Notes under the pieces: generated by a model
The model's database searches: none
What the model was told of the DNA's origin: nothing
What the model saw: only the letters and a program-made list of their open reading frames with translations
In this document: positions 2,335 through 53,925 of the stretch, piece by piece
Numbering within the stretch: position 1 is the first letter of the stretch
Layout of the letters: each line of letters starts with the position of its first letter
Source of the DNA: a virus
Direction: 5' to 3' (one strand)
Length of the DNA: 64,000 nt
Virus record (IMG/VR): IMGVR_UViG_3300045250_000069
Translations under genes and position numbers: made by a program

Positions 2335-2362
2335 TCGGCCCCACGCGGGCTAAACGCCACCC

Positions 2363-2397
2363 ACCCACGGGTGGCGTTTGTCGTTTCCACAGAAAGG
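2363..2397 (+). terminator. Hairpin AAACGCCACCC/GGGTGGCGTTT with T-rich tail before major tail gene
   Basis: Inverted repeat followed by TGTCGTTT. Confidence 0.5.
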
Positions 2398-2404
2398 GAA
2401 GCAA

Positions 2405-2986: not shown

Positions 2987-3073
2987 CAGTACCGGCGCGG
3001 TCGGGAACGCTTCGGGGTCGTGCCCGGCCGCGCCTTTAACCCCGCAACCCCGTCACCCTGAAAGGAAACCGTT

Positions 3074-3837: not shown

Positions 3838-3846
3838 GAGGCTGCT

Positions 3847-6800: not shown

Positions 6801-7173
6801 GCTGCTCGAGATCGTCGGTGACGCCTGGCAGGGAGTCAAGGACTTCTTCGGAATCGCTTCACCGTCACGGCTCATGCGCGACACGATCGGTAAGCAGATC
6901 CCGGCGGGTCTCGCGGTCGGTATCAAGCAGGGCGCGAGCGAGTCGACGAATGCCGCTTTGGCGATGTCGAAGCAGGTCGCGTCGGCTGCGCAGACCGCAG
7001 CCACGTATTCCTCGAGCGTGGACGTGCAACGCACCGACACGGGCCTCGCGGTCACGGATGCAGCGGGCCTCACGGTCAACTTCACCGTGAATGGCGAGAA
7101 GGGTCAGGATGTTGACGAGCTCGTCGACATCATCATGCAACGTCTGGGTGGCGTAAGCCGGAGGTTCCGATGA
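3847..7173 (+). CDS. Tape measure protein (1108 aa)
   Basis: Long Ala/Gly-rich ORF, tape-measure core, amphipathic repeats. Confidence 0.95.
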   Translation: MADSMVGHGYVQITPSMRGFRKTVNREVEGTAGEARRSFSARMKSAGRESGQSLGTSLKQTLTASAGDLGAGALKGLESNVAKAAGALSTARLKQQDEAGKVRVAEAKLAEAMKKYPEGASQIVAAEERVETARRRHKDATDKVTDASDRLRTAQDRLKTATDRVADSVDKVKLGSFAQQLRDGWKDARVANSQFSGVASSIGGIARAVSNASGLSKLGGIARAAAQRTSTAFGSLATMIGGKLSAGWTAASSWLSGVAGRVGGFLAPVGQLFSNLGTKLATPFVNLGTKIAGHLKPVTDSVKAFASKLPGPMGSAASGIGSTLASGLSGLVGKIGTVGRDLGARFASSVQSAATAGVAGVAAAVGAALAGGMGRLTSLDESIAKMKGLGFASEDIEKAMQIANDAAVGTSFAMNDLASAAAMAMTAGIKPGEQLVGYLDSIKGAATASGAPVQEIASIFGKVATAGTAYTTEIQQLADRQIPIWGELAEVMGVPAAEVKKLASEGKIDLVTFQTAVTNATGGMAEEMGKTLPAKIANTRSAFSRLGMALLGTKMEGDELVGGLFPAFKSFFDMVRTGVDAVTALIGPFFEKWTTSGGGKLVELFDSLTEKFTSFKETVSDGGGLDALGGQATNLAAVLAPVGAALAAIGIGGLAPLLARIPVLGGMLGGLGGAFAFLGGPIGIAAAAIAAFMATGADSSALVSGLTGIIDSVLAMLPGLIDTVVKVIPGIVDGILKAVPELLTAATGIVQGLIGGIVKATPLLAKGWVLLLNGLINAVVQNLPMIIQAAVTLVTTLIQGIVQALPLLIQGSISLITGLIQGIVTNLPMIIEAAIQLVMSLIEGIISMLPTLIEAAISLVTTLITAIAENLPLIIEAGIGLLLALVTGLLDALPELITAVLELIPAIVTTLLENLPQLVSAALEMILAIAGGLIQAIPELVAAIPEIIAAVFTAFTEVDWLSLGGDIIAGIVEGIVNAGGQIWDALLEIVGDAWQGVKDFFGIASPSRLMRDTIGKQIPAGLAVGIKQGASESTNAALAMSKQVASAAQTAATYSSSVDVQRTDTGLAVTDAAGLTVNFTVNGEKGQDVDELVDIIMQRLGGVSRRFR

Positions 7174-7937
7174 GCAGTGGTGTGCGGGTCGAGTACGGCG
7201 GGATCATGTTCCGGGGGAAGGGCTACACAGCAGTCCCTGGGGACAAAACGTTCGGTATTGCTCGTAGTGGCCTGCAGGGGTTTGATGCTCCTGCAGGCCG
7301 CCGCGGCGAGGACATCGCACGACCGGGGGACGGAAGCTTCGCGCTGGCGACTCATGCGGGCGCCGCGATCCGCTCGATCTCGGGTATCGCCGTCGCCAAC
7401 TCGCATCGCGAATTGATGGTGATGCGTGACGATTTCGCGGGGCTCGCGTCGGCCGATCTGCGACCGATGGTCTACTGGGTTGAGGGCATCCCTCGGAGCA
7501 CGGACGCTCAGGTGTGGGACCAGCCAACATGGGAGTGGGACCCGCGGGATCGCCACGCGAAGTTCCAGCTGATGCTGCGCTGCCCGTGGCCGTTCTGGCT
7601 TGGTGACGCGCACGCGCAGGAGCTCTCGACGGGGCTCGAGTTGGTGAATCGTGGGACGGCGAATGCGTGGCCCGTGATCAGGATTACGGGCCCGGTATCG
7701 ACGGCGTTTTCGATCACGGTCGGGGGCCGGAAGGTTCGCGTGGATCGCACGCTCACCGCGACACAGTGGGTTGAGATTACGACTCGTACGGGTGTCGCTC
7801 GGACGAACGCGGGGGAGCTGTTGCTGTCGGAAGTGACGGGGCTGATGCCGTACCTGCCGCCCGGAGTTTCGACGGTGGTGTTGTCGAACATTACCGCGCC
7901 GCGCGTCAAGTTTTCGTGGTCTGACACATACGTGTAG
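7170..7937 (+). CDS. Distal tail protein (Dit-like)
   Basis: First gene after TMP; LRCPWPFW and NRGTANAWP motifs. Confidence 0.8.
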   Translation: MSSGVRVEYGGIMFRGKGYTAVPGDKTFGIARSGLQGFDAPAGRRGEDIARPGDGSFALATHAGAAIRSISGIAVANSHRELMVMRDDFAGLASADLRPMVYWVEGIPRSTDAQVWDQPTWEWDPRDRHAKFQLMLRCPWPFWLGDAHAQELSTGLELVNRGTANAWPVIRITGPVSTAFSITVGGRKVRVDRTLTATQWVEITTRTGVARTNAGELLLSEVTGLMPYLPPGVSTVVLSNITAPRVKFSWSDTYV

Positions 7938-7945
7938 GGGGATGC

Positions 7946-9130
7946 ATGGCTTGGCGAATCGTGGCCGCTGACGCAGTGACTCGGAAAGTGTTTTATGACC
8001 TGACGAACGTCGCCACCGCGTCGTACTCGGCGGTGCTGAACGGCGCCGGGTCGGTGGACGTGACGATCCAAACCCGGGATGCGCTCACGCCCGTACCGGT
8101 GGAAGTGCTGCAGCTGTTGCGGCGTCGACAGAAGGCGACCGTGATCATCGTCGGATGGGTGCAGTCGTCTGGTGAGACGTACGCGGTCGCGGACGCACTG
8201 ATCGACACGTCATCGTGGAATCCTGGCACGGGCGTGCTGACGGTCTCGGGGGAGTCCGTGTGGTCTCTCATGGGCGAACGGATGATGTATCCGATGTGGG
8301 CGCGCGAGGTGATCGCGGGCGGCGGCACCGGAACGTTCTTCGTGGACTCCACGATCGAGGATGCGATGTGGTGGATCGTGGCCGCGTCGATCGGGCTCGG
8401 CAAAGAGATCTACCGCAACGGCGAGCTGATTTACGCGCCGACCGGGAATCATCACCGGCATCAGGATTTTCGGTGGTCGTCATCGACGGCGACGCAGTCT
8501 CGCCGGTGGGAGTTCCCGTACCGTGAACGCACCGCGCTCGAGATCCTCGAGGAGTTCCTCGGCTATGACGGTGCACCGGATGTCGCGCTCCAGCCACGCA
8601 TCGTGGATGAGGAGATCTATTGGCTGGTGCACACGAAGGTGGACATGCTGCGGTGGGAATCCGAGCTCGTGCATGATCGCGCTCCTGGTTTTCAGTCGCG
8701 GGTGACCGACCTGCAGATCGTGAAGGACGGCGTGCGCGGAACCACGTCACTGCTGAAAGTCGGCGGCGGTTCGGGCAAGTCGATGCAGTCCACGGCCGCC
8801 GTGTTCCAAGACATCGGCATCTCGGTGGAGGATCTTGACGGTCTCACTCGCGAGCGGATCACGTCAGCGAAGCAAGCGGACGATAATCCGCGGTTGCGGC
8901 GTCTCGCGGTCGCGGAACTCCGCGAAAACTATTCCGACATTGAGCAATGGTCGTTCGGTGTGCGCTGCGACGGCGAAGTTCCCCCGTCGCTGTTTATGCC
9001 TGGGGCTGGGGTGCGGTTGCAGTACGGCGGCGACGAACTCTATTCCGCGAAAGAGCACCTGTTTCAGATCCTCGGGGTGAGCGGTTCGACCGATTCCACG
9101 CAGCTCAGATTGGACATCCAGAATGCCTAA
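7946..9130 (+). CDS. Baseplate hub / Tal-like minor tail protein
   Basis: Synteny; YSAVLNGAGS N-terminal motif. Confidence 0.75.
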   Translation: MAWRIVAADAVTRKVFYDLTNVATASYSAVLNGAGSVDVTIQTRDALTPVPVEVLQLLRRRQKATVIIVGWVQSSGETYAVADALIDTSSWNPGTGVLTVSGESVWSLMGERMMYPMWAREVIAGGGTGTFFVDSTIEDAMWWIVAASIGLGKEIYRNGELIYAPTGNHHRHQDFRWSSSTATQSRRWEFPYRERTALEILEEFLGYDGAPDVALQPRIVDEEIYWLVHTKVDMLRWESELVHDRAPGFQSRVTDLQIVKDGVRGTTSLLKVGGGSGKSMQSTAAVFQDIGISVEDLDGLTRERITSAKQADDNPRLRRLAVAELRENYSDIEQWSFGVRCDGEVPPSLFMPGAGVRLQYGGDELYSAKEHLFQILGVSGSTDSTQLRLDIQNA

Positions 9131-10157
9131 AGAGAACCTGCGCCGAGATGATGATGGCGGGATTGGTGACCTGTCGAAACAGATCAAAGACCTCCAGACC
9201 GCGAACCCGCTCGAGAACGGATCAGTCGACACTGGCACGCTCACGATCCGTTCAAGCCAGGACGGGCTCGTGATCGAGGCGGGCGGGCAATTCCTCGCGA
9301 AGGACGGCGCGACCATCCTCATTGAGGCGCTGCTGCGAGTGACGGGGCAAACCCAACTCGGGGACACATGGACCAATCAACTCATCTCGAACGGCAACCT
9401 GTTCGCGAACGGCCAGCTTGCGGTCGAGGGCAAAACCTATTTGAACGACATCCTCGACGTGGATGGGACCACCGACCTCCGTGGCCGAGTGAATTTTCGC
9501 AACGATCTGTACGCACTCGAGCTTCCAGAGGCGTCGTCTCCAACGTCGATGAACATCGTGCTGGTCGATGATGGCGGAAAGTTCTATCGGGGCCCGAAGT
9601 ATTCGTCTGGTGGTACGGGTGGCTCGGATAACCCGACTTCGCCTGGCGGGTTGGGTGAGGGCCCGGCTGCGCCGTTTTCGTATCAGGCGTTTTCGATTGG
9701 AAATGGGTCGGGCGAGGCAGACTTCGGGACTCGGAACACCGCGAAGGGCTGGCATGACGGGCTCGACTTCGCGTATGACGGCGCCGGGTACGGTGCTGCG
9801 GTGAGGTCGGTCGCGACTGGCACGGTCGTGAACTCGTCCTATGCGAATCATTCTGATGCCGGCCCCTACCCTGTGTGCATTGATCATGGGCCGCTCGAGG
9901 CTGGATCGCACGCGGGGAGGCGACTCTATTCGGTGTATTGGCACATGCTGGACCGCACGGTGTCGGTCGGCGATTCGGTGACGGCAGACACGGTGATCGG
10001 GCATGTCGGCGCGTACGGCAATGTCACGGGGCCGCACCTGCACCTCGAGCTGCATCTGGATTCGCTGCACTCGAATTGGCCGGTGCTTGGCCTTGATTCG
10101 TCGACTGGTGCGCAGGATCCTGTTCCGATTTTTAATGAGTATGGGGGCTGGCGGTAA
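9123..10157 (+). CDS. Minor tail protein with C-terminal M23 peptidase
   Basis: HxxxD (WHDGLD) and HxH (GPHLHLE) motifs. Confidence 0.85.
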   Translation: MPKENLRRDDDGGIGDLSKQIKDLQTANPLENGSVDTGTLTIRSSQDGLVIEAGGQFLAKDGATILIEALLRVTGQTQLGDTWTNQLISNGNLFANGQLAVEGKTYLNDILDVDGTTDLRGRVNFRNDLYALELPEASSPTSMNIVLVDDGGKFYRGPKYSSGGTGGSDNPTSPGGLGEGPAAPFSYQAFSIGNGSGEADFGTRNTAKGWHDGLDFAYDGAGYGAAVRSVATGTVVNSSYANHSDAGPYPVCIDHGPLEAGSHAGRRLYSVYWHMLDRTVSVGDSVTADTVIGHVGAYGNVTGPHLHLELHLDSLHSNWPVLGLDSSTGAQDPVPIFNEYGGWR

Positions 10158-10627
10158 TGGCGAAATATAGCGGTACGGTTGTGCGGCCGTCGAGTGTGGC
10201 GCATGTGGCGTCGGCTCGGGCGCAGTTGCAAGTAAAGCTGGCGGAGCCGGGGACGCGTTCGGGATCGCTGGTGAATGACGACACCATCGTTGTTGACGTG
10301 CCGTCATCGGGCGCGTTCGAGGTCGATTTAATCCCGTCTCCGCAGATTCTCTCCCGGTCTGGTCGGCCCGCAGTGTATAGCGTCGCGGAGTCGTGGCTGG
10401 ACCCTGACGGCGTGCAGATCCCCGGCGGGTACTCCGAGTGGGGGACGTTCTACCTTGGCGCGTCTGGCGGCACGCTCTCGCAATATAAGGTGGCGCCGCC
10501 TGGCACGCCGGTCATCGAATGGGTGTCGACCCTCGCGGAAGCGCAGGCCCTCGAACCGACCCTCGCGAAGGGCTCAATCATCATCGTCGCCGGTAGCACG
10601 GCCTGGAATGTTTACGAGGTGTCGTAA
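10157..10627 (+). CDS. Minor tail protein
   Basis: Coupled TAATG starts within tail operon. Confidence 0.65.
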   Translation: MAKYSGTVVRPSSVAHVASARAQLQVKLAEPGTRSGSLVNDDTIVVDVPSSGAFEVDLIPSPQILSRSGRPAVYSVAESWLDPDGVQIPGGYSEWGTFYLGASGGTLSQYKVAPPGTPVIEWVSTLAEAQALEPTLAKGSIIIVAGSTAWNVYEVS

Positions 10628-12183
10628 TGGCTCTAACACTGATTGGCAGTATCGCCGCAATTACTGACGCGGTGGCTGCGAACCTCGTATCCGGCCCGAC
10701 GCAGACTCGTGCCGCGGTTGACGCGCGCGTGCGCGGCATTGTGCCGGCTGAGGTGTCGTCGCAGATCGCGAACTCTACGACGTTGCAGGCTGCGTTGGCG
10801 GCGATGATCGGCAATCTCGGTGATGCGAACCTCGCGGCGGAGTATGCGCGCACGATTACGCCGACTGCGGATTGGAACACGCTCACTCAGCGTGGTGTGT
10901 GGCGGCGCGCGTCAGCGACTCCGAACGGGTCGAACGTGCCGCCGACGCAGGCGTCGGGCACGCTGTATGTGACGAAGTCGAACGAGCAGACTGACCAGGC
11001 TGGCGGGCAACTGTTCATGGCCGCTGACGGTATTTGGTACCGCAGCGTTTCTGATGCGGGCGTGTGGTCGGAGTGGCGTGCGCTCGATTCCGACTATCGC
11101 GGGCTGATGCCGGATGGACAGTCGATCGATGACATGACCGGCCAGCAGTGGACTGGGCAATGGTATGTGCCGTCTACTGCTGCGGCGGACGCGCTGGTGG
11201 GTGCGAAACCGCCGATGAGCGGGCCGGGCACGTTCACGGTCGTGTCGTCGCGCACGTCGGGCTATTCGCACACGGTGCAGTGGTGGTCGATGCACCTGCT
11301 GTCAGGCTCGAAGCTGTTTATGCGGCTCACGGTCGCGTCGGGCGCGTTCAATGACTGGATTGAGGTTGGCGGTGCCGGGAGTAGTGCTGGCGCGCGTGAC
11401 CTGCGCCTGCAACTGTTTGAGGAGGCGTACCCGCTCGTTTCGACAGGGAATAAGGGCGTCGTCGTGCTTCGGTATGACCACGGCCTCACGAATTTCAAGT
11501 CGACGATCCTGCCGTTGCATCAGCAATACAATCTGCCTGCCTATATCGCGATGAATTCCCGCAACTGGTCGCTCGATGAGAACTCGGGCGCAACGCAGGA
11601 GGAAGCCCGGTCGTGGGCGAACGTCGAATGGGGCAACCATTCCGCCGACCACGAAGACAAGTCGGGTGGGGCCGCGATCTACGACAACATCGTGAACGGC
11701 CGCATCGAGCTCGAAGCCCAGTTGGAACGCACGATCCACGGCTACACCGCGCCGGGGTTGACGGGCGGCCAGTTCGACGGGTTCAACACCGGCTGGGTCG
11801 ACGGCTACTCCAACACGCCCGCGGGTGCGATGATCCTCGACCATCACGCGATCGCGTCCGGCGGGATCGGCGACACGAACTTCCGCCCCCTGGACGGGAA
11901 GATCCGCATCGGTGGCCGGCATTACACGTGGGAGCAGCGCACGTACGCACAAATCAAGGCCGAGATCGATACTGCGATCTCGACCAAGACCGCGCTGACG
12001 ATTATGGCGCACCCGCGCACGATGAACCAGTCCGGGTATTGGACGCCGGCACTGTTGGAGCAGGTGCTGGCCTATATTCGGTCGCAGATCGATGCGGGGA
12101 ACCTCGCTGATCTGACCTACTACCAGTCGCAGCATGCGGTGTTGCGGACGCCGGTCGAGGCATTCCAGGCCGCACTCGCCTAA
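10627..12183 (+). CDS. Tail fibre/RBP 1: knob-like repeats plus CE4 polysaccharide-deacetylase-like domain
   Basis: W-rich repeats; LRYDHG, GNHSADH, MAHP motifs. Confidence 0.75.
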   Translation: MALTLIGSIAAITDAVAANLVSGPTQTRAAVDARVRGIVPAEVSSQIANSTTLQAALAAMIGNLGDANLAAEYARTITPTADWNTLTQRGVWRRASATPNGSNVPPTQASGTLYVTKSNEQTDQAGGQLFMAADGIWYRSVSDAGVWSEWRALDSDYRGLMPDGQSIDDMTGQQWTGQWYVPSTAAADALVGAKPPMSGPGTFTVVSSRTSGYSHTVQWWSMHLLSGSKLFMRLTVASGAFNDWIEVGGAGSSAGARDLRLQLFEEAYPLVSTGNKGVVVLRYDHGLTNFKSTILPLHQQYNLPAYIAMNSRNWSLDENSGATQEEARSWANVEWGNHSADHEDKSGGAAIYDNIVNGRIELEAQLERTIHGYTAPGLTGGQFDGFNTGWVDGYSNTPAGAMILDHHAIASGGIGDTNFRPLDGKIRIGGRHYTWEQRTYAQIKAEIDTAISTKTALTIMAHPRTMNQSGYWTPALLEQVLAYIRSQIDAGNLADLTYYQSQHAVLRTPVEAFQAALA

Positions 12184-12200
12184 CCACACTCTCTCACTCA

Positions 12201-12225
12201 AGCCACCCCTGCGGGTGGCTTTTTT
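12201..12225 (+). terminator. Intrinsic terminator between the two fibre paralogs
   Basis: AGCCACCC-CTGC-GGGTGGCT-TTTTT. Confidence 0.85.
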
Positions 12226-12259
12226 GTTGCACCCACACGGTGCGGAAAGGGGCAGACCG

Positions 12260-13699
12260 GTGGATGACGACCTGGTGCAGCTCGCAACCCTGATCGGTGT
12301 TGAACTCAAAACCCGTGGCACGATCCGTGCACTCATCCCCGCCGACACGGACGTGAACACGCTCCGCACCCCCGGCGTGTATGCAGTCGCATCGACCACG
12401 ATCGCTGCCTCACTCATCAACTGGCCGGAACCGGTCACGGGGCTTCTCGTGGTCGAAAAAACGCCCCAGAACCAGATGACGACGCAGAACGTGTACCTGT
12501 ACAAGTCAACATCGCAGCCACCGAAGAAATACTCGCGCGTGAACCGTCTCGCATCGAACGATGCGTGGACGGCGTGGGGTTCCCCGGAATGGGCGCAGGC
12601 CGTGTTCGGCGGCACGTCCGAGACTCCCGCGAACGTTGACATGCATGTCGAGGCGGGCGCGTGGCTCGTCACCGCACCGGCCACGGTGACTGGTTTGCCG
12701 GCGGTGACGGCGACCGGATGGATTATCGAGAATCTGCGGTTCCGTGACTCGACAGTGATGCTGCAGCGTGCGACGGCTCGCACGTCGGGTGCGCCTCGCG
12801 TGTTCACTCGGGTCGGTGCGGTGCCTGCCGCGACGGGTTGGAATGGTGCCGCCTGGCATGAACTCGCGGCCGGTGGTGGAACCACGCCGGTTGTGGCGGA
12901 GGACGCGGGGCTCGCGAACGCGATGCTGCTGCAGGACTTCGTGCGCCGGCGCGGTGGCCGCAAGAAAGTGACGACCGGGGTTATTTCGTTCCGTTTCGAT
13001 CATGGCCTCGCGAACTTCGACACGAAGATCCGGCCACTGCTCGAGGCCCGCAACATCCCGTACAGTCTCGCGCTCTGCTCCGGCCAATGGTCACGTTCGG
13101 AGAACGTCGGTGTGACTGCGGCGATGGTCAACGGCTGGGTTGAGGGTGGTCTCGCGGAGGTCTGGAACCATTCGAAGGATCATGGCTCGGGCGACAACTC
13201 GACTGCGCAATGGCAGGCCGCGATCCAGGACGGTCTCACCGAACTGCAGGCGCAAATTCCGGCCGCGCAGATAGACGGCTGGGCACCCCCAGGTTCCTCT
13301 GGTACGGACTTTGGCGGGTTCACGAACGGTGGCACGATCCCGCAACTGTTGACCGAGGGGGGCCGCTATATCCTCGCGCGGCACGCGATCACTGCCGGCT
13401 ACCTGTCTGGCACCGTGTATCGGCTGTTGGATGGGAACCCGCGTAACGCGCTCACGCATGTGACGGGGGATAAGCAGACGCAGGCGCAGCTCGAGGCGTA
13501 CCTGAATGGCGCGGTCTCGCAACGCAAGGGCGTGCAGATCATGATTCATCCGTCGCTGGTCGACTCGGAGGGGTATATCACGACGGCGGAGATCGAGGGG
13601 TTCCTGGATGCGGTAGTGACCGCTCGCGACGCTGGCCAGGTGGCGGTGATGGGGCCGTACGACGCGCTCCTCGCTGACGCGACCGACGCTGCGATCTAA
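12260..13699 (+). CDS. Tail fibre/RBP 2: knob-like repeats plus CE4-like domain (paralog)
   Basis: GTG start after GAAAGGGG; FRFDHG, WNHSKDH, MIHP motifs. Confidence 0.72.
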   Translation: MDDDLVQLATLIGVELKTRGTIRALIPADTDVNTLRTPGVYAVASTTIAASLINWPEPVTGLLVVEKTPQNQMTTQNVYLYKSTSQPPKKYSRVNRLASNDAWTAWGSPEWAQAVFGGTSETPANVDMHVEAGAWLVTAPATVTGLPAVTATGWIIENLRFRDSTVMLQRATARTSGAPRVFTRVGAVPAATGWNGAAWHELAAGGGTTPVVAEDAGLANAMLLQDFVRRRGGRKKVTTGVISFRFDHGLANFDTKIRPLLEARNIPYSLALCSGQWSRSENVGVTAAMVNGWVEGGLAEVWNHSKDHGSGDNSTAQWQAAIQDGLTELQAQIPAAQIDGWAPPGSSGTDFGGFTNGGTIPQLLTEGGRYILARHAITAGYLSGTVYRLLDGNPRNALTHVTGDKQTQAQLEAYLNGAVSQRKGVQIMIHPSLVDSEGYITTAEIEGFLDAVVTARDAGQVAVMGPYDALLADATDAAI

Positions 13700-13759
13700 C
13701 CGCGCCCCAAACGTTGATCCCCGTTACGGGGCCATTTTTCATGCCTGAAAGGGGCAGCA

Positions 13760-14653
13760 ATGACTCATTCGAAGCTCACGAACAAGATCAGTCTCAGCAG
13801 CCAGTCGAGTTCGCGTGACGGCACGAAGATCGATCGGTTCCTCGTTCACCACGCAGCAAGCACCTCGCAGTCCGGCGTGGTCGACATGATGGTGCGCGCG
13901 ACCCGCACAGTCTCGGCGAACTATGTCATCGGCGACACAATCACCTGTGTCGTTGACGAGGATCGCCGCGCCTGGACTTCTGGCGCGTCGGGTGACGGCG
14001 GCCGCGGCGCAGCGTTCGACACGCGCTCAATCACCGTCGAAACCATCAATGACTCGACGGACGGTTGGACGGTCAGCGACAAGACGTTCGACAACCTCGC
14101 GCGCCTCATCGCCGATTGCGCCACCCGCTACGACTTCGACATCACCGATGACACCGTGCTCACGCACCAGGAACTCTGGTCGCGGTTCCGTGCTTCGTAC
14201 GCAACCGCGTGCCCTGGGGATTTGCAGCGCCGTAAGGCCGAGCTGTTGAAGCTCGCGAAGTCCTACCAGGACGGCAAGGCCACCGGGGGTGGTACTGCCG
14301 CGTCGAAGCCTGCGACGTCGACGCCGGCGCGCGCCTCGTGGGAGGCGACCGCGTTCGGCATCGGCACCACCGCCACCGCCGCGCAGTGGAAGACGATTCA
14401 GAGCTGGCTCAAGAAGCTGGTCCGCTATGACGGCCCCGTTGATGGTGTGCCCGGCCAGAACACCTGGAAGGGCATTCAGCGCACCGTCGCCAAGTACGGC
14501 TACTACGACGGCCCCATCGACGGTGTTCCCGGCACGAACACCGCGAAGGGAATGCAGTCCTACGCACGCAACGGCGGCGGCTACACCGGCCCCACCGACG
14601 GCGTGCTCGGCGCGAACTCGTGGGCCGGGTTCGTCAAGCGGCTTTCGAGCTAG
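13760..14653 (+). CDS. Endolysin: Zn amidase (Amidase_2-like) plus peptidoglycan-binding repeats
   Basis: VHHAA...HQE...ACPG ligands; three DGxxGxxT/S repeats. Confidence 0.9.
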   Translation: MTHSKLTNKISLSSQSSSRDGTKIDRFLVHHAASTSQSGVVDMMVRATRTVSANYVIGDTITCVVDEDRRAWTSGASGDGGRGAAFDTRSITVETINDSTDGWTVSDKTFDNLARLIADCATRYDFDITDDTVLTHQELWSRFRASYATACPGDLQRRKAELLKLAKSYQDGKATGGGTAASKPATSTPARASWEATAFGIGTTATAAQWKTIQSWLKKLVRYDGPVDGVPGQNTWKGIQRTVAKYGYYDGPIDGVPGTNTAKGMQSYARNGGGYTGPTDGVLGANSWAGFVKRLSS

Positions 14654-14661
14654 GAGCGATC

Positions 14662-15078
14662 ATGCCGAAGCGTCTCGTGACCTGGATGCATGACCCGCCC
14701 GAGTGGCGGCCGGTGTGGCTTGGAGGGCATCTGTGGGGTGCGCTCATGGGCGCCGTCACGCTCACCGCGCCGCCGCTCACGATCAAGGGCGAGCTCGGGC
14801 CTGTCCTCACCACCGTGTGGGGAATCCTCGCATTGGTCGGTTCGCTCATCGCCGCCGCGAACGTCTACTCGCGGCATGCATGGGCGGAACGCCTCGGTAT
14901 CCAGATCGCGGCGCTCGGCACCGGCCTCTACTCCGCAACAATCCTCTACCTGTGGGTTTCCACGGGGGAGAACCGCGGCACACAATTCTTCGCCGTGTCG
15001 CTCGGCCTGTTCTTCTTCCTGGCGCGGTTCCTCACGGTCGAGCACTGGGACGACCGCGACCTCGCACGGGAGATCTGA
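14662..15078 (+). CDS. Multi-TM lysis-cassette membrane protein
   Basis: About 4 hydrophobic segments; AGGAG RBS. Confidence 0.7.
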   Translation: MPKRLVTWMHDPPEWRPVWLGGHLWGALMGAVTLTAPPLTIKGELGPVLTTVWGILALVGSLIAAANVYSRHAWAERLGIQIAALGTGLYSATILYLWVSTGENRGTQFFAVSLGLFFFLARFLTVEHWDDRDLAREI

Positions 15079-15416
15079 TGCCGCTCTGGGAATACATCGT
15101 CTCGCTCGCGACGGCACTCGGTGTCGGCACGATCGTTCCCAAGATATTCGACAAGCTGGCCGCGAACATGACCGAGCGAGGGCAGCGCCGCAGGAAGGAC
15201 GCGGAGCGCCTCGCGCAGCTCGTGGACGAAGCGAAGCGCGAGCGAGACGAAGCGATCGCGCACCGCGACGTTGAAGCGTCCCGTCGTCGCCGCCTCGAGG
15301 AACATGCGTCGCGGCTGCGCCGAATCCTCGCGGAAGCACCGTGCGTCGACTTCGACACGATCCCGCCCTGGCCTGGAGGCACGGGGCCAACACCTACGCA
15401 AGGAGACTACAAGTGA
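15078..15416 (+). CDS. 1-TM plus coiled-coil lysis-cassette protein
   Basis: N-terminal hydrophobic helix, charged coil. Confidence 0.7.
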   Translation: MPLWEYIVSLATALGVGTIVPKIFDKLAANMTERGQRRRKDAERLAQLVDEAKRERDEAIAHRDVEASRRRRLEEHASRLRRILAEAPCVDFDTIPPWPGGTGPTPTQGDYK

Positions 15417-15655
15417 CCTCTACCCCGAACCTCGGCGCTGTGATTCAGTCGCCCACCGCCCGCCGTTGGATTTACGGCGTCTACATCATCGCTGTGTTCA
15501 TCATCGGATGTGTTCAGGTCGGCTTCGCTGCGGTGGATGCTGGCCAGCCTGACTGGCTGACGGTCGCTCTCGCGGTCGCCGCGTACGCGGGTGTCCCTGT
15601 TGGCGCGCTCGCCGCAGCGAACACGTCAACCTCTACCGGCAAGCACACCGAATAA
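15413..15655 (+). CDS. Holin (2 TM)
   Basis: ARRWIYGV then two TM helices; AAGGAG RBS. Confidence 0.8.
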   Translation: MTSTPNLGAVIQSPTARRWIYGVYIIAVFIIGCVQVGFAAVDAGQPDWLTVALAVAAYAGVPVGALAAANTSTSTGKHTE

Positions 15656-15676
15656 CCTTCATCCCCAACGATTGAA

Positions 15677-15713
15677 GCCCCCACCTTCACGCTGAGCGCG
15701 TGCGGGTGGGGGC
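15677..15713. terminator. Probably bidirectional terminator after lysis cassette
   Basis: GCCCCCACC/GGTGGGGGC stem between convergent genes. Confidence 0.7.
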
Positions 15714-15731
15714 GCTTTCGTCGTTTCCGGG

Positions 15732-15917
15732 CTACGACCGCACCCAGGCGATGACTTCACCCTCGCCAAGCTCGACCAGCCCACGCGCCTCCTCAAGCGT
15801 CGACGCCGCGATCTCGACCTCGCGCGGCGCATCCACCTCCGGTCGATCGCCGAGCGCGTCACGCTCCGTCTCCGAGAGAGCAGCAGCAGTATTGACGGTC
15901 TTGATCATCACGTGCAT
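15732..15917 (-). CDS. Small acidic hypothetical protein
   Basis: TAAGCT -10-like hexamer 7 nt before ATG (leaderless). Confidence 0.55.
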   Translation of the reverse strand: MHVMIKTVNTAAALSETERDALGDRPEVDAPREVEIAASTLEEARGLVELGEGEVIAWVRS

Positions 15918-15943
15918 GGCATTGAGCTTAGGCCGCGGGCAGC

Positions 15944-16009
15944 CTTGCAACGGAGGGAATAATATTCCCAACTCACTTGAATCGGGCATATTATTCCCTC
16001 GCTTGCAAG
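15944..16009. promoter_or_regulatory. 26-bp-arm inverted repeat containing two GGGAAT-N3-ATTCCC-type palindromes
   Basis: CTTGCAAcgGAGGGAATAATATtCCC / GGGcATATTATTCCCTCgcTTGCAAG. Confidence 0.7.
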
Positions 16010-16011
16010 AG

Positions 16012-16033
16012 TGTCGGCGGCGGGAGCTACCCT
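16012..16033 (+). promoter_or_regulatory. PafBC-type (RecA-NDp) DNA-damage promoter
   Basis: TGTCGG-N10-TACCCT; -10 lies at -12..-7 relative to ATG 16040. Confidence 0.7.
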
Positions 16034-16039
16034 CTGCGC

Positions 16040-16336
16040 ATGAGCAAGCAGCATCTAGAGGGTGCCGACGCGATCGTCGCCGCGATCGAGGCGCAGGCGC
16101 GCCAATCCCATCCGCTCGCCGAGACGATCCACCCAGGTCAGGTGTGGCGCGTGCACGGCCACAGCACCGCGACGATCGGCTGGGTGCGGTACCTCGTGCC
16201 AGAGCGTGGCACCGGGCCCGCCTATCACGCCTACGCTGACCGGCGTGAGGATGGTGTACGGCCGTGGCTCAAGAGCTTCGCGACACTCGACTCAGCCGTG
16301 GCATGGGTCTACCAGCACCGCGGGGAGCTCAGCTGA
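16040..16336 (+). CDS. Hypothetical 98-aa protein, probably leaderless
   Basis: MSKQHLEGAD...; ATG 7 nt after -10. Confidence 0.7.
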   Translation: MSKQHLEGADAIVAAIEAQARQSHPLAETIHPGQVWRVHGHSTATIGWVRYLVPERGTGPAYHAYADRREDGVRPWLKSFATLDSAVAWVYQHRGELS

Positions 16337-16511
16337 GATCGTCCACGATGCTCTCGATCGTGCCCTGACGTCCGCGGAACTCGATCACATCCGGCAACTC
16401 GGCATACTCGTGCAGCACCGCCACGCAGGCATTCACGGCCTCAAGCTGACGGTCCGCAGGCACCTGCTCAATGAGAGCACCGAGCACGTCCAGGGCTTCC
16501 TCAAGATCCAT
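16329..16511 (-). CDS. Small acidic helical hypothetical protein
   Basis: MDLEEALDVLG...; convergent overlap with 16040-16336. Confidence 0.5.
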   Translation of the reverse strand: MDLEEALDVLGALIEQVPADRQLEAVNACVAVLHEYAELPDVIEFRGRQGTIESIVDDLS

Positions 16512-16539
16512 GCGGGGGAGTCTACGCGGCGTAGTTTCG

Positions 16540-16598
16540 TGCCCACTTTTTGCCCACATTTTGCCCACGAAACTCACGCTTTGCCCACATTTGCCCAC
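16540..16598 (+). repeat. Integrase arm-type sites, P arm (5 x TGCCCAC)
   Basis: Copies at 16540, 16551, 16562, 16582, 16592. Confidence 0.75.
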
Positions 16599-16703
16599 AC
16601 TTTCCACCGCTCTCAGCATCCCGCCACATCCACCGCACCCCGCCGACTTACCAGGTAAACACTGGGCACGCGGCGAAAACACGGCGGAGACAACAACCTC
16701 GGC

Positions 16704-16732
16704 ACGCGGGTTCGATTCCCGTCATCCCCTCG
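16704..16732 (+). other. attP core = 3' half of a tRNA (T-arm and acceptor strand, most like tRNA-Gly)
   Basis: ACGCGGG-TTCGATT-CCCGT-CATCCCC-T; flanked by arm repeats on both sides. Confidence 0.85.
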
Positions 16733-48163: not shown

Positions 48164-48171
48164 GGGGATGC

Positions 48172-50383: not shown

Positions 50384-50853
50384 TGGCGAAATATAGCGGT
50401 ACGGTTGTGCGGCCGTCGAGTGTGGCGCATGTGGCGTCGGCTCGGGCGCAGTTGCAAGTAAAGCTGGCGGAGCCGGGGACGCGTTCGGGATCGCTGGTGA
50501 ATGACGACACCATCGTTGTTGACGTGCCGTCATCGGGCGCGTTCGAGGTCGATTTAATCCCGTCTCCGCAGATTCTCTCCCGGTCTGGTCGGCCCGCAGT
50601 GTATAGCGTCGCGGAGTCGTGGCTGGACCCTGACGGCGTGCAGATCCCCGGCGGGTACTCCGAGTGGGGGACGTTCTACCTTGGCGCGTCTGGCGGCACG
50701 CTCTCGCAATATAAGGTGGCGCCGCCTGGCACGCCGGTCATCGAATGGGTGTCGACCCTCGCGGAAGCGCAGGCCCTCGAACCGACCCTCGCGAAGGGCT
50801 CAATCATCATCGTCGCCGGTAGCACGGCCTGGAATGTTTACGAGGTGTCGTAA
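50383..50853 (+). CDS. Minor tail protein (copy 2)
   Basis: Same as 10157-10627. Confidence 0.65.
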   Translation: MAKYSGTVVRPSSVAHVASARAQLQVKLAEPGTRSGSLVNDDTIVVDVPSSGAFEVDLIPSPQILSRSGRPAVYSVAESWLDPDGVQIPGGYSEWGTFYLGASGGTLSQYKVAPPGTPVIEWVSTLAEAQALEPTLAKGSIIIVAGSTAWNVYEVS

Positions 50854-52409
50854 TGGCTCTAACACTGATTGGCAGTATCGCCGCAATTACTGACGCGGTG
50901 GCTGCGAACCTCGTATCCGGCCCGACGCAGACTCGTGCCGCGGTTGACGCGCGCGTGCGCGGCATTGTGCCGGCTGAGGTGTCGTCGCAGATCGCGAACT
51001 CTACGACGTTGCAGGCTGCGTTGGCGGCGATGATCGGCAATCTCGGTGATGCGAACCTCGCGGCGGAGTATGCGCGCACGATTACGCCGACTGCGGATTG
51101 GAACACGCTCACTCAGCGTGGTGTGTGGCGGCGCGCGTCAGCGACTCCGAACGGGTCGAACGTGCCGCCGACGCAGGCGTCGGGCACGCTGTATGTGACG
51201 AAGTCGAACGAGCAGACTGACCAGGCTGGCGGGCAACTGTTCATGGCCGCTGACGGTATTTGGTACCGCAGCGTTTCTGATGCGGGCGTGTGGTCGGAGT
51301 GGCGTGCGCTCGATTCCGACTATCGCGGGCTGATGCCGGATGGACAGTCGATCGATGACATGACCGGCCAGCAGTGGACTGGGCAATGGTATGTGCCGTC
51401 TACTGCTGCGGCGGACGCGCTGGTGGGTGCGAAACCGCCGATGAGCGGGCCGGGCACGTTCACGGTCGTGTCGTCGCGCACGTCGGGCTATTCGCACACG
51501 GTGCAGTGGTGGTCGATGCACCTGCTGTCAGGCTCGAAGCTGTTTATGCGGCTCACGGTCGCGTCGGGCGCGTTCAATGACTGGATTGAGGTTGGCGGTG
51601 CCGGGAGTAGTGCTGGCGCGCGTGACCTGCGCCTGCAACTGTTTGAGGAGGCGTACCCGCTCGTTTCGACAGGGAATAAGGGCGTCGTCGTGCTTCGGTA
51701 TGACCACGGCCTCACGAATTTCAAGTCGACGATCCTGCCGTTGCATCAGCAATACAATCTGCCTGCCTATATCGCGATGAATTCCCGCAACTGGTCGCTC
51801 GATGAGAACTCGGGCGCAACGCAGGAGGAAGCCCGGTCGTGGGCGAACGTCGAATGGGGCAACCATTCCGCCGACCACGAAGACAAGTCGGGTGGGGCCG
51901 CGATCTACGACAACATCGTGAACGGCCGCATCGAGCTCGAAGCCCAGTTGGAACGCACGATCCACGGCTACACCGCGCCGGGGTTGACGGGCGGCCAGTT
52001 CGACGGGTTCAACACCGGCTGGGTCGACGGCTACTCCAACACGCCCGCGGGTGCGATGATCCTCGACCATCACGCGATCGCGTCCGGCGGGATCGGCGAC
52101 ACGAACTTCCGCCCCCTGGACGGGAAGATCCGCATCGGTGGCCGGCATTACACGTGGGAGCAGCGCACGTACGCACAAATCAAGGCCGAGATCGATACTG
52201 CGATCTCGACCAAGACCGCGCTGACGATTATGGCGCACCCGCGCACGATGAACCAGTCCGGGTATTGGACGCCGGCACTGTTGGAGCAGGTGCTGGCCTA
52301 TATTCGGTCGCAGATCGATGCGGGGAACCTCGCTGATCTGACCTACTACCAGTCGCAGCATGCGGTGTTGCGGACGCCGGTCGAGGCATTCCAGGCCGCA
52401 CTCGCCTAA
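50853..52409 (+). CDS. Tail fibre 1 with CE4-like domain (copy 2)
   Basis: Same as 10627-12183. Confidence 0.75.
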   Translation: MALTLIGSIAAITDAVAANLVSGPTQTRAAVDARVRGIVPAEVSSQIANSTTLQAALAAMIGNLGDANLAAEYARTITPTADWNTLTQRGVWRRASATPNGSNVPPTQASGTLYVTKSNEQTDQAGGQLFMAADGIWYRSVSDAGVWSEWRALDSDYRGLMPDGQSIDDMTGQQWTGQWYVPSTAAADALVGAKPPMSGPGTFTVVSSRTSGYSHTVQWWSMHLLSGSKLFMRLTVASGAFNDWIEVGGAGSSAGARDLRLQLFEEAYPLVSTGNKGVVVLRYDHGLTNFKSTILPLHQQYNLPAYIAMNSRNWSLDENSGATQEEARSWANVEWGNHSADHEDKSGGAAIYDNIVNGRIELEAQLERTIHGYTAPGLTGGQFDGFNTGWVDGYSNTPAGAMILDHHAIASGGIGDTNFRPLDGKIRIGGRHYTWEQRTYAQIKAEIDTAISTKTALTIMAHPRTMNQSGYWTPALLEQVLAYIRSQIDAGNLADLTYYQSQHAVLRTPVEAFQAALA

Positions 52410-52485
52410 CCACACTCTCTCACTCAAGCCACCCCTGCGGGTGGCTTTTTTGTTGCACCCACACGGTGCGGAAAGGGGCAGACCG

Positions 52486-53925
52486 GTGGATGACGACCTG
52501 GTGCAGCTCGCAACCCTGATCGGTGTTGAACTCAAAACCCGTGGCACGATCCGTGCACTCATCCCCGCCGACACGGACGTGAACACGCTCCGCACCCCCG
52601 GCGTGTATGCAGTCGCATCGACCACGATCGCTGCCTCACTCATCAACTGGCCGGAACCGGTCACGGGGCTTCTCGTGGTCGAAAAAACGCCCCAGAACCA
52701 GATGACGACGCAGAACGTGTACCTGTACAAGTCAACATCGCAGCCACCGAAGAAATACTCGCGCGTGAACCGTCTCGCATCGAACGATGCGTGGACGGCG
52801 TGGGGTTCCCCGGAATGGGCGCAGGCCGTGTTCGGCGGCACGTCCGAGACTCCCGCGAACGTTGACATGCATGTCGAGGCGGGCGCGTGGCTCGTCACCG
52901 CACCGGCCACGGTGACTGGTTTGCCGGCGGTGACGGCGACCGGATGGATTATCGAGAATCTGCGGTTCCGTGACTCGACAGTGATGCTGCAGCGTGCGAC
53001 GGCTCGCACGTCGGGTGCGCCTCGCGTGTTCACTCGGGTCGGTGCGGTGCCTGCCGCGACGGGTTGGAATGGTGCCGCCTGGCATGAACTCGCGGCCGGT
53101 GGTGGAACCACGCCGGTTGTGGCGGAGGACGCGGGGCTCGCGAACGCGATGCTGCTGCAGGACTTCGTGCGCCGGCGCGGTGGCCGCAAGAAAGTGACGA
53201 CCGGGGTTATTTCGTTCCGTTTCGATCATGGCCTCGCGAACTTCGACACGAAGATCCGGCCACTGCTCGAGGCCCGCAACATCCCGTACAGTCTCGCGCT
53301 CTGCTCCGGCCAATGGTCACGTTCGGAGAACGTCGGTGTGACTGCGGCGATGGTCAACGGCTGGGTTGAGGGTGGTCTCGCGGAGGTCTGGAACCATTCG
53401 AAGGATCATGGCTCGGGCGACAACTCGACTGCGCAATGGCAGGCCGCGATCCAGGACGGTCTCACCGAACTGCAGGCGCAAATTCCGGCCGCGCAGATAG
53501 ACGGCTGGGCACCCCCAGGTTCCTCTGGTACGGACTTTGGCGGGTTCACGAACGGTGGCACGATCCCGCAACTGTTGACCGAGGGGGGCCGCTATATCCT
53601 CGCGCGGCACGCGATCACTGCCGGCTACCTGTCTGGCACCGTGTATCGGCTGTTGGATGGGAACCCGCGTAACGCGCTCACGCATGTGACGGGGGATAAG
53701 CAGACGCAGGCGCAGCTCGAGGCGTACCTGAATGGCGCGGTCTCGCAACGCAAGGGCGTGCAGATCATGATTCATCCGTCGCTGGTCGACTCGGAGGGGT
53801 ATATCACGACGGCGGAGATCGAGGGGTTCCTGGATGCGGTAGTGACCGCTCGCGACGCTGGCCAGGTGGCGGTGATGGGGCCGTACGACGCGCTCCTCGC
53901 TGACGCGACCGACGCTGCGATCTAA
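52486..53925 (+). CDS. Tail fibre 2 with CE4-like domain (copy 2)
   Basis: Same as 12260-13699. Confidence 0.72.
   Translation: MDDDLVQLATLIGVELKTRGTIRALIPADTDVNTLRTPGVYAVASTTIAASLINWPEPVTGLLVVEKTPQNQMTTQNVYLYKSTSQPPKKYSRVNRLASNDAWTAWGSPEWAQAVFGGTSETPANVDMHVEAGAWLVTAPATVTGLPAVTATGWIIENLRFRDSTVMLQRATARTSGAPRVFTRVGAVPAATGWNGAAWHELAAGGGTTPVVAEDAGLANAMLLQDFVRRRGGRKKVTTGVISFRFDHGLANFDTKIRPLLEARNIPYSLALCSGQWSRSENVGVTAAMVNGWVEGGLAEVWNHSKDHGSGDNSTAQWQAAIQDGLTELQAQIPAAQIDGWAPPGSSGTDFGGFTNGGTIPQLLTEGGRYILARHAITAGYLSGTVYRLLDGNPRNALTHVTGDKQTQAQLEAYLNGAVSQRKGVQIMIHPSLVDSEGYITTAEIEGFLDAVVTARDAGQVAVMGPYDALLADATDAAI

What the first reader, a model, noticed from the sequence alone, without database searches (positions are those of the whole stretch)
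10627..13699. Two tandem paralogous tail fibres ending in variant CE4 deacetylase domains (DHG instead of DDG)
Seen: both proteins have two W-rich knob-like repeats, then a domain with motif 1 RYDHG/RFDHG, motif 2 HSxDH and a motif-5-like xHP. They are diverged, and only the first has the long N-terminal anchor. Established: CE4/NodB enzymes use TFDDG plus HxxxH (Asp-His-His metal triad) and an RxPY motif. Here the second Asp is His and the Arg is absent (YTAPG/WAPPG). Inference: a His-His-His variant pair that binds or de-N-acetylates two different cell-wall glycans, possibly a branched dual-receptor tail or a receptor-editing system.
Basis: partly seen in the sequence, partly recalled or inferred. 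Interest (0 to 1): 0.7.

Follow-up and report, generated by a model that had tools for sequence, protein, structure and literature searches.

The report
Paired phage tail fibres with deacetylase tips
Two neighbouring prophage tail-fibre genes each end in a sugar-deacetylase-type domain in which one metal-holding aspartate is replaced by histidine, the hallmark of a large, uncharacterised family in phages of Arthrobacter-like bacteria that probably edits the host's wall sugars during attachment.

Summary
Genes 10627-12183 (518 aa) and 12260-13699 (479 aa; the true start is GTG 12260, not 12134) lie last in the tail module of an integrated actinobacterial prophage. Each protein has an N-terminal helix, two Trp-rich pyocin-knob-like domains and a C-terminal NodB/CE4 domain.

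AlphaFold models (pLDDT 89 and 91) match the zinc-bearing turret head protein of archaeal virus HFTV1 (Z 20) and CE4 enzymes (Z 14-17). Alignments put R-x-D-H-G on the canonical T-F-D-D-G. HSxDH falls on motif 2 and xHP on motif 5, and the motif-3 Arg is missing.

This is a family trait, not a local oddity. His occupies that position in 200 of 203 domains, and the family has at least 401 clusters at E<1e-30. All other catalytic positions are near-invariant, so an active metal-dependent deacetylase is likelier than a dead lectin.

The two genes are old paralogues (33% identity). They fall in separate clades, and two other prophages keep the same gene order. Single-chain fusions of two such domains also exist.

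Activity, substrate, virion presence and a "branched" fibre remain untested. Databases already call relatives "polysaccharide deacetylase", "esterase" or "minor tail protein". The scan had noted the same sequence in another genome (e1-3292708).

Verdict: a new variant of a known kind, of moderate interest.

The parts
10157..10627 (+). 156-aa small tail protein. Its stop codon shares base 10627 with the start of fibre gene A. It is possibly a fibre adaptor or attachment protein (role unproven).
   Evidence: ORF. No Pfam or PHROG hit. A 156-aa homologue (E 2e-6) sits in the same place before the A/B pair in L002. Atlas features resemble phage tail N-terminal and beta domains; this is a lead only.
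10627..12183 (+). Fibre gene A (P0001, 518 aa). N-terminal helices aa 1-75, knob 1 about aa 76-160, knob 2 about aa 161-250, NodB/CE4 domain aa 256-518.
   Evidence: PHROG 11373 'tail protein' at 1.4e-54. PF01522 at 26.7 bits, above the 23.1 cut-off. AlphaFold pLDDT 89.1. Foldseek and VIA matches.
11470..11484 (+). Gene A motif 1, R-Y-D-H-G. D284 is the putative catalytic base. H285 sits in place of the metal-binding Asp.
   Evidence: Conservation.
11638..11652 (+). Gene A motif 2, H-S-A-D-H (putative metal ligands H338 and H342).
12007..12015 (+). Gene A motif 5-like A-H-P (H462 is the putative catalytic acid).
12200..12229 (+). Intrinsic-terminator-like hairpin (9-bp G+C-rich stem, 4-nt loop, T-run) between genes A and B.
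   Evidence: Hairpins stand at the same junction in L002 and JEGGS.
12260..13699 (+). Fibre gene B (P0002, 479 aa, GTG start). Helix aa 2-20, knob 1 about aa 22-110, knob 2 about aa 111-205, NodB/CE4 domain aa 215-479.
   Evidence: PHROG 11373 at 4.6e-108. PF01522 at 22.3 bits, just under the cut-off. AlphaFold pLDDT 90.8. VIA Z 20.4 to 8qpg and 16.9 to 3rxz.
12992..13006 (+). Gene B motif 1, R-F-D-H-G.
13169..13183 (+). Gene B motif 2, H-S-K-D-H.
13544..13552 (+). Gene B motif 5-like I-H-P.
50853..53925 (+). Exact second copy of genes A and B. The window's 1-16732 is repeated at 40227-56958.

Best explanation
Genes A and B encode the two distal tail fibres (receptor-binding proteins) of a temperate siphovirus of a Micrococcales host; the closest homologues are from Brachybacterium.

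Each fibre is probably a trimer. It would be anchored by its N-terminal helix, carry two pyocin-knob-type domains, and end in a NodB/CE4 domain that is a working metal-dependent deacetylase.

In that domain the usual Asp-His-His metal site has become His-His-His (H285, H338, H342 in A). The catalytic base (D284) and acid (H462, with D423) are kept. The lost motif-3 Arg is probably replaced by R282 or R420.

On contact, the tips would bind an acetylated wall glycopolymer and strip acetyl groups from it. This would let the phage move through the polymer or commit to it, as SGNH-esterase tailspikes do in Gram-negative phages and as proposed for the HFTV1 turret.

A and B are ancient paralogues kept as an ordered pair. 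They most likely have different glycan specificities.

Shown here: gene structure, fold, motif equivalence, family-wide conservation, paralogy and synteny.
Inferred: metal ligation by His285, catalysis, substrate, trimer state and virion location.
For: Tail context:
- Gene order is TMP 3847-7173, distal tail 7170-7937, minor tail 7946-9130, M23 peptidase tail protein 9123-10157, the 156-aa protein, A, B, then the endolysin 13760-14653.
- Both proteins hit PHROG 11373 'tail protein'.
- Relatives are annotated as minor tail proteins in about 20 Arthrobacter phages.
- In the 15.8-kb phage Adaia the CE4 protein is one of only two genes after the TMP.

Fold:
- The knobs match the R2 pyocin fibre and staphylococcal phage RBPs.
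- The C-domains match the HFTV1 turret head protein 8qpg at Z 20.1 and 20.4, and CE4 structures 3rxz at Z 17 and SpPgdA at Z about 14.7.
- 8qpg is a trimer with a modelled Zn site (PMC12494034).

Motif equivalence: D-H falls on D-D and HSxDH on H(S/T)xxH in alignments to 2iw0, 4u10, 6dq3 and HFTV1 gp31.

Conservation in 206 domains:
- D284: 203 of 203.
- H285: 200, with Asp in 3, so D and H interchange at this site.
- H338: 205; H342: 206; H462: 206; P463: 205; R282: 196; R420: 185; D423: 189; H407: 201.

Known CE4 pseudoenzymes lose such residues, and MT5-His loss inactivates the enzyme (PMC10967932, PMC11713874). A relocated Arg is precedented in PgaB-type enzymes and Agd3.

Pairing:
- A and B fall in separate well-supported clades (100 and 99 SH-aLRT). 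L002 and L006 have the same A-then-B order.
- Tandem pairs also occur in JEGGS and L013.
- Four metagenomic proteins fuse two such domains in one chain.
Against: - There is no biochemical or virion evidence for any member of the family in the papers searched.
- I could not inspect model coordinates, so the His-His-His geometry is not verified.
- A His at the Asp position is not among the CE4 metal-site variants described in the two reviews and papers I read, so its competence is unproven.
- Gene B scores just under Pfam's cut-off.
- Gene B has only about 20 aa in front of its first knob, unlike its relatives. How it attaches to the tail is unclear.
- Some annotators call relatives 'lysin A'.
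Confidence: 0.6

Rival explanations
1. The CE4 domains are catalytically dead and serve only as lectin-like glycan-binding tips (pseudoenzymes, like BA3943, BA0150 or BA0330). The D-to-H change and the loss of the motif-3 Arg mark the inactivation.
For: Two canonical residues are changed: the metal-binding Asp and the MT3 Arg. Among the best structural matches is the pseudoenzyme BA3943 at Z 15-16. Receptor-binding proteins often reuse enzyme folds for binding alone.
Against: Every other catalytic position (base Asp, both MT2 His, MT5 His, an Asp near MT4) is 92-100% conserved across 206 domains at 25-66% identity. Described pseudoenzymes lose these residues. His is a competent Zn ligand. Rare members carry Asp at the same site. 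Alternative Arg residues (R282, R420) are conserved.
Confidence: 0.22
2. The proteins belong to the lysis system rather than the tail. They would be wall-modifying 'lysin' components that work with the M23 peptidase at lysis or during wall penetration, acting on peptidoglycan.
For: They lie directly upstream of the endolysin. Kumotta and MargaretKali gp25 are annotated 'lysin A, hydrolase domain', next to a 'lysin A, peptidase domain' gene in the same M23 - small gene - CE4 order. Many CE4 enzymes act on peptidoglycan.
Against: A complete endolysin (Amidase_2 plus PG_binding_1) and a holin-like gene follow. Deacetylation does not cleave peptidoglycan. The N-terminal two-thirds are fibre-type knob domains. 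In cluster AU phages the genes sit among the tail genes, far from the lysis cassette. PHROG assigns them to tail.
Confidence: 0.08
3. Gene B is a moron-like, separately expressed cassette. It would be made in the lysogen to alter the host's own wall glycan (superinfection exclusion or receptor editing) rather than being a virion part.
For: There is a terminator between A and B. Gene B has a shortened N-terminus compared with its relatives.
Against: No promoter-like site was found between the terminator and the start, a gap of only about 35 nt. The protein has no recognisable export signal and keeps the full knob-knob-CE4 fibre layout. Its clade-B relatives carry long fibre-type N-termini and are annotated as tail proteins.
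Confidence: 0.05

Closest known systems
HFTV1 turret head protein gp31 (PDB 8QPG; Sci Adv 2025, PMC12494034)
   Same: It is a structural protein of a tailed virus with a C-terminal NodB/CE4-like domain. It is the best structural match to both C-domains (Z 20.1 and 20.4; 17-18% identity). It is a trimer with a Zn site modelled from cryo-EM, and is proposed to bind and deacetylate host surface glycans. Its motif 3 also lacks an Arg.
   Different: It sits on the capsid of an archaeal virus, not on a tail. Its N-terminal part is a galactose-binding-like domain, not pyocin knobs. It has the canonical D-D in motif 1. The sequence relation is detectable only by profile comparison (hhalign E 1.5e-4, probability 52%).
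Carbohydrate esterase family 4 / NodB enzymes (SpPgdA, ClCDA 2IW0, PgaB, SlCE4; NodB1.2-type 3RXZ and HP0310)
   Same: The fold is the same. The order of motifs 1 to 5 is the same. The catalytic Asp, the E-x-G-N-H-S-x-x-H stretch, a Pro in motif 3 and the motif-5 His are shared.
   Different: The second Asp of motif 1 is His. T-F before it is R-[FY]. The motif-3 Arg is absent. Motif 4 reads R-x-L-D-G. The domain is about 265 aa, with insertions, and is fused to fibre domains.
SGNH-esterase tailspikes and tail fibres that deacetylate receptors (G7C gp63.1, Pectobacterium phages PP99 and Possum, Acinetobacter phage Aristophanes)
   Same: The proposed working principle is the same: a virion-borne enzyme removes acetyl groups from the receptor polysaccharide during adsorption (papers listed).
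   Different: The fold and chemistry are unrelated (Ser-His-Asp hydrolase against a metal-dependent NodB). Those hosts are Gram-negative. Mudcat gp19 combines both domain types in one protein.
Arthrobacter phage tail proteins: JEGGS gp18/gp19 (noted 'esterase'), Adaia gp14, Phrank15 gp30 ('glucosaminyl deacetylase')
   Same: They are true homologues (25-46% identity) with the same knob plus CE4 layout. JEGGS has a tandem pair. JEGGS gp19 and Adaia gp14 have D-H.
   Different: In cluster AU the pair lies upstream of the tape measure gene. JEGGS gp18 has D-D and belongs to a third clade. None was found characterised experimentally.
R-type pyocin fibre knob domains (PDB 6CL6, 6CL5)
   Same: The two N-terminal beta-rich domains of P0001 match them (Foldseek E 1e-6 and 6e-6). 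NCBI names relatives 'pyocin knob domain-containing protein'.
   Different: The pyocin fibre ends in a lectin-like foot, not an enzyme domain. Pfam and NCBIfam give no sequence-level hit.

Membership tests
CE4 / NodB homology domain (Pfam PF01522) | Distorted (beta/alpha) barrel NodB fold | tested here: met
   AlphaFold C-domains have pLDDT about 98. VIA Z is 13-17 to more than 40 CE4 structures and 20 to 8qpg.
CE4 / NodB homology domain (Pfam PF01522) | Profile score above Pfam's gathering cut-off (23.1 bits) | tested here: inconclusive
   Gene A scores 26.7 bits (met). Gene B scores 22.3 bits (just under). 23 of 24 family members match at E<0.01, best 3e-11.
CE4 / NodB homology domain (Pfam PF01522) | Motif 1, first Asp (catalytic base) | tested here: met
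   D284 and D247 are present; Asp in 203 of 203 domains. They align to the first Asp of 2iw0, 4u10 and 6dq3.
CE4 / NodB homology domain (Pfam PF01522) | Motif 1, second Asp (metal ligand of the Asp-His-His triad) | tested here: not met
   The position holds His (H285 and H248). It is His in 200 of 203 domains and Asp in 3.
CE4 / NodB homology domain (Pfam PF01522) | Motif 2, H(S/T)xxH (two metal-binding His) | tested here: met
   HSADH and HSKDH are present. The two His are kept in 205 and 206 of 206 domains. Some clade members carry a 7-8 aa insert between the two His.
CE4 / NodB homology domain (Pfam PF01522) | Motif 3, R-P-P-Y: an Arg that holds the catalytic Asp, plus a conserved Pro | tested here: not met
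   The motif reads Y-T-A-P-G and W-A-P-P-G. There is no Arg, but the Pro is kept (194 of 206). R282 and R420 are candidate substitutes; this is inference.
CE4 / NodB homology domain (Pfam PF01522) | Motif 4 Asp paired with the motif 5 His | tested here: inconclusive
   A conserved D423 (R-x-L-D-G, 189 of 206) lies at the expected place in the sequence. Its spatial pairing could not be checked without coordinates.
CE4 / NodB homology domain (Pfam PF01522) | Motif 5, L-x-H (catalytic acid) | tested here: met
   M-A-H-P and M-I-H-P stand at the end of a beta-strand. His is kept in 206 of 206 domains and aligns to F-H-S-D of HFTV1 gp31.
CE4 / NodB homology domain (Pfam PF01522) | Metal-dependent de-N- or de-O-acetylase activity | not testable with these tools
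   This needs an enzyme assay and metal analysis.
Phage tail fibre / receptor-binding protein | Encoded in the tail module downstream of the tape measure gene, with tail-protein homologues | tested here: met
   Gene order. PHROG 11373. Annotated relatives.
Phage tail fibre / receptor-binding protein | Fibre-type domains (pyocin knob) | tested here: met
   Foldseek gives 6cl6 at E 1e-6 and 6cl5 at 6e-6, plus phi812, 80alpha and phi11 baseplate RBPs. These domains were not folded alone.
Phage tail fibre / receptor-binding protein | Present in the virion, trimeric, and required for adsorption | not testable with these tools
   This needs virion proteomics, cryo-EM and genetics.
SGNH-esterase receptor-deacetylating tailspikes | SGNH hydrolase fold and motifs | tested here: not met
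   No SGNH family appears in the Pfam scan. The fold is NodB.

The most novel reading that the evidence does not exclude
The R-x-D-H-G proteins form a mechanistically distinct, phage-borne branch of the NodB superfamily. It would have a His-His-His metal site and a relocated Arg. The conserved A/B pair, sometimes fused in one chain, would be a two-enzyme adsorption device: the two enzymes act in sequence, or on two different acetylated wall glycopolymers of Micrococcales, and so set the host range.
Probability: 0.3. Interest if true: 0.6.

Novelty: new variant of a known kind. Interest (0 to 1): 0.42.

Why it matters
The receptors and adsorption chemistry of phages that infect Micrococcales (Arthrobacter, Brachybacterium, Kocuria, Rothia) are almost unknown. 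A family of several hundred sequence clusters places a CE4-type domain at the fibre tip. This points to acetylated wall glycopolymers as receptors and to enzymatic editing as part of adsorption, extending a principle known from SGNH tailspikes of Gram-negative phages and proposed for an archaeal virus.

For carbohydrate enzymology, a near-universal Asp-to-His change in the metal triad would be a natural test of how ligand charge tunes CE4 catalysis, given that all other catalytic residues are retained.

The conserved two-paralogue module gives a concrete handle on host-range determinants.

Tried and rejected
- **Near-identical DNA in sequenced phages:** none found. The phage is new at the DNA level.
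- **Whole genome of the window:** not held.
- **Complex prediction:** three copies of the 156-aa upstream protein with three copies of gene A's N-terminal 110 aa gave no answer, score 0.08 against a mark of 0.32. This is not evidence either way.
- **NCBIfam:** no useful family for either protein.
- **BLASTP of knob 1 against knob 2, and of the N-terminal halves of A against B:** only marginal similarity. The repeat reading rests on the models, not on sequence.
- **Literature searches for a described CE4/NodB tail protein in actinophages, or a His-His-His CE4:** nothing found.
- **Expression:** the 'RNA' libraries that hold the stretch also hold the host flank at almost the same contig depth. 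They therefore do not show transcription.
- **Model coordinates:** not available to scripts, so distances in the putative metal site could not be measured.
- **Gene B start at ATG 12134:** rejected. That reading runs through the terminator as an Arg/Pro-rich stretch that overlaps gene A.
Full report
**What is there**

The window is G+C-rich (about 63%) and carries a temperate siphovirus-type prophage. The tail module reads as follows:
- tape measure gene, 3847-7173
- distal tail protein, 7170-7937
- minor tail protein, 7946-9130 (PHROG 1885)
- tail protein with an M23 peptidase domain, 9123-10157
- 156-aa protein, 10157-10627
- gene A, 10627-12183
- gene B
- endolysin, 13760-14653 (Amidase_2 plus PG_binding_1)
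- holin-like gene

Gene A starts on the last base of the preceding stop codon. An intrinsic-terminator-like hairpin with a T-run follows gene A at 12200-12229. The ORF of gene B is open from 12134, but that reading runs through the terminator. The credible start is GTG 12260, behind GGAAAGGGG, which gives 479 aa.

**The observation**

- The two C-terminal domains align over 266 residues at 33% identity, E 2e-35.
- The N-terminal halves are barely similar by BLASTP.
- They are Trp-rich, at 5.7% and 4.3%.
- In both AlphaFold models (mean pLDDT 89.1 and 90.8) they form two consecutive beta-rich domains behind an N-terminal helical segment. That segment is about 75 aa in A and about 20 aa in B.
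- For the model of A, Foldseek matches these domains to the knob domains of R1 and R2 pyocin fibres (E 1e-6 and 6e-6) and to baseplate receptor-binding proteins of staphylococcal phages.

**The C-terminal domain is a NodB/CE4 domain**

- Pfam PF01522 scores 26.7 bits for A, above the 23.1 cut-off, and 22.3 bits for B. Of 24 relatives, 23 match, the best at 3e-11.
- A family profile finds a PgaB-type deacetylase (4u10, 1.3e-4), the Colletotrichum chitin deacetylase (2iw0, 2e-4) and PplD (6dq3) among solved structures.
- The models, with pLDDT about 98 in this domain, align to more than 40 CE4 structures at Z 13-17 (3rxz 17.0, HP0310 16.6, SpPgdA 14.7).
- The best match is the turret head protein gp31 of Haloferax tailed virus 1 (8qpg, Z 20.1 and 20.4).

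**The motif variant**

In every alignment, D284-H285 of gene A falls on the D-D of canonical motif 1, and H338/H342 fall on H(S/T)xxH.
- The stretch E-W-G-N-H-S-A-D-H is close to the canonical E-I-G-N-H-T-x-x-H.
- Motif 3 keeps the Pro but has no Arg.
- Motif 5 is M-x-H-P, at the end of a beta-strand.

HFTV1 gp31 has a Zn site modelled from a 2.36 Å map (PMC12494034). It has canonical D-D, N-H-G-Y-N-H and F-H-S-D, and it also lacks the motif-3 Arg. H285 therefore occupies the position of the metal-binding Asp.

I could not check the geometry, because model coordinates are not exposed to scripts. His-His-His ligation is an inference.

**It is a family trait**

A profile search of 1.84 billion representative proteins found 1393 clusters at E<1e-3, 659 at E<1e-10 and 401 at E<1e-30.

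Residue counts in the 206 domains I could align (203 of them cover motif 1):

| Position | Count |
|---|---|
| D284 | 203 |
| H285 | 200 (Asp in the other 3) |
| R282 | 196 |
| H338 | 205 |
| H342 | 206 |
| H407 | 201 |
| R420 | 185 |
| D423 | 189 |
| H462 | 206 |
| P463 | 205 |

Such retention across sequences only 25-66% identical argues for catalysis rather than a binding-only remnant. Described CE4 pseudoenzymes lose these residues, and loss of the motif-5 His inactivates the enzyme (PMC10967932, PMC11713874).

The same papers show that the Arg can be supplied from elsewhere (PgaB-type enzymes, Agd3) and that the metal site tolerates variation (the His-Asp dyad of BoPDA and CtAxeA). Neither describes a His at the Asp position. 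R282 lies two residues before the catalytic Asp on the same strand, and R420 is also conserved. Either could be the substitute Arg; this is inference.

**Who has it**

Named homologues come from Brachybacterium (66% identity in the domain), Paenarthrobacter, Glutamicibacter, Kocuria and Rothia genomes.

Among isolated phages, all but one record are Arthrobacter phages (clusters AU/AM and AN, Kumotta-like, Phrank15). The exception is labelled Pseudomonas phage Hadban.

In the 15.8-kb phage Adaia only two genes follow the tape measure gene, and the second is the D-H CE4 protein. This is a strong contextual argument that this protein is the receptor-binding component. I found no experimental study of any member.

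**The pair**

Tandem pairs occur in the window, JEGGS (gp18/gp19), a Logan contig (L002), Paenarthrobacter (L006) and an IMG/VR contig (L013). The other ten loci show one gene, although some of these are cut by contig ends.

In a maximum-likelihood tree of 90 domains:
- Gene A falls in a clade (SH-aLRT 100) with the first genes of L002 and L006.
- Gene B falls in another clade (SH-aLRT 99) with their second genes and JEGGS gp19.
- JEGGS gp18, which has D-D, lies in a third clade.

The duplication is therefore old, and the order A then B is inherited as a module.
- L002 also keeps a 156-aa homologue of the upstream gene.
- Hairpins stand between the two genes in the window, L002 and JEGGS, which may set the A:B ratio.
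- Four metagenomic proteins carry two such domains in one chain. This links the two modules functionally, but it does not show a branched fibre.
- Gene B lacks the 30-110 N-terminal residues of its relatives, which often carry W-K-A-N-T-x-Y...G-D-x-V repeats. Its mode of attachment is open.
- A complex prediction for the 156-aa protein with the N-terminus of A gave no answer.

**Mechanism proposed**

Trimeric fibres present three knob tiers and three CE4 lobes. The lobes bind an acetylated wall glycopolymer and remove acetyl groups by the usual CE4 chemistry: metal-activated water, D284 as base and H462 as acid. The difference is a His3 site, which would make the metal more electrophilic.

Whether N- or O-acetyl groups are removed, and from which polymer, cannot be told from sequence.

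Rival readings and my odds:
- binding-only pseudoenzymes: 0.22
- lysis-associated enzymes: 0.08
- a lysogen-expressed modification gene: 0.05

**Novelty**

The kind is known: virion-borne glycan deacetylases, CE4 domains in viral structural proteins, and database labels on close relatives. What is new is the family-wide D-to-H metal-site variant with a displaced Arg, and the conserved two-paralogue module in Micrococcales phages.

The scan had already noted the same sequence in another genome (e1-3292708). That was a first-reader note with the same reading and is not independent evidence.

**Side observations**

The window's 1-16732 is repeated exactly at 40227-56958. The repeat ends at a 30-bp core that is the 3' end of a tRNA gene. 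It is followed once by the phage integrase (16795-18030, minus strand) and once by a different integrase (57124-58293).

In public 'ant metagenome' runs, contigs break at this core and continue in three ways. The phage contig is 1.14-1.45 times as deep as the right flank. This fits one integrated copy plus some circular or tandem forms better than a fixed double lysogen.

Noticed in passing
window 1-16732 and 40227-56958: There is an exact 16,732-bp direct repeat with a period of 40,226 bp, so the prophage appears one and a half times, as if in tandem. In public runs the phage contig is only 1.14-1.45 times as deep as the host flank, and contigs break at the att core. The tandem form may therefore reflect a mix of integrated and circular (attP) molecules, or a minority of cells.
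   Followed up: partly
window 16703-16732 and 56929-56958: A 30-bp attachment core equals the 3' end (T-arm and acceptor strand) of a tRNA gene. A contig end in the runs supplies the upstream half, with an anticodon loop that I read as UCC (Gly). ARAGORN finds no complete tRNA in the window.
   Followed up: partly
window 57124-63436: Directly beyond the right attachment site lies a second, different tyrosine integrase (57124-58293) followed by an AAA_25-domain protein (60321-61910). This is probably another integrative element stacked at the same tRNA site.
   Followed up: no
window 12200-12229; L002 7950-7990; L001 6425-6480: A terminator-like hairpin stands between the two fibre genes in three unrelated phages. 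It may be a conserved device that sets the ratio of the two fibres, or it may mark a module boundary.
   Followed up: partly
proteins P0005, P0074, P0075, P0080 (metagenomic relatives): These single polypeptides of 856-1052 aa carry two CE4-like domains of this family. In P0075 the second domain has canonical D-D.
   Followed up: partly
L001 (Arthrobacter phage JEGGS) 4585-8374: The JEGGS tandem pair mixes motif types. gp18 has R-F-D-D-A and lies in a third clade, while gp19 has R-F-D-H-G. In this cluster the pair lies upstream of the tape measure gene, between the major tail genes and the chaperone region.
   Followed up: partly
window 9123-10157: This tail protein has a C-terminal M23 peptidase domain (E 2.6e-16) behind a repeat-rich N-terminal part. 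It is probably a virion-associated peptidoglycan hydrolase. In Kumotta the counterpart is annotated 'lysin A, peptidase domain'.
   Followed up: no
BFVD hit A0A140G6V2 (Arthrobacter phage Mudcat, 1292 aa): A relative combines this knob plus CE4 module with an SGNH-hydrolase esterase domain in one tail protein, giving two unrelated deacetylase folds on one fibre.
   Followed up: no
public runs X19-X24: Libraries labelled metatranscriptomic RNA-Seq (ant metagenome) hold the whole phage and the host flank at nearly even contig depth. They probably contain DNA-level signal and cannot be used as evidence of expression.
   Followed up: partly
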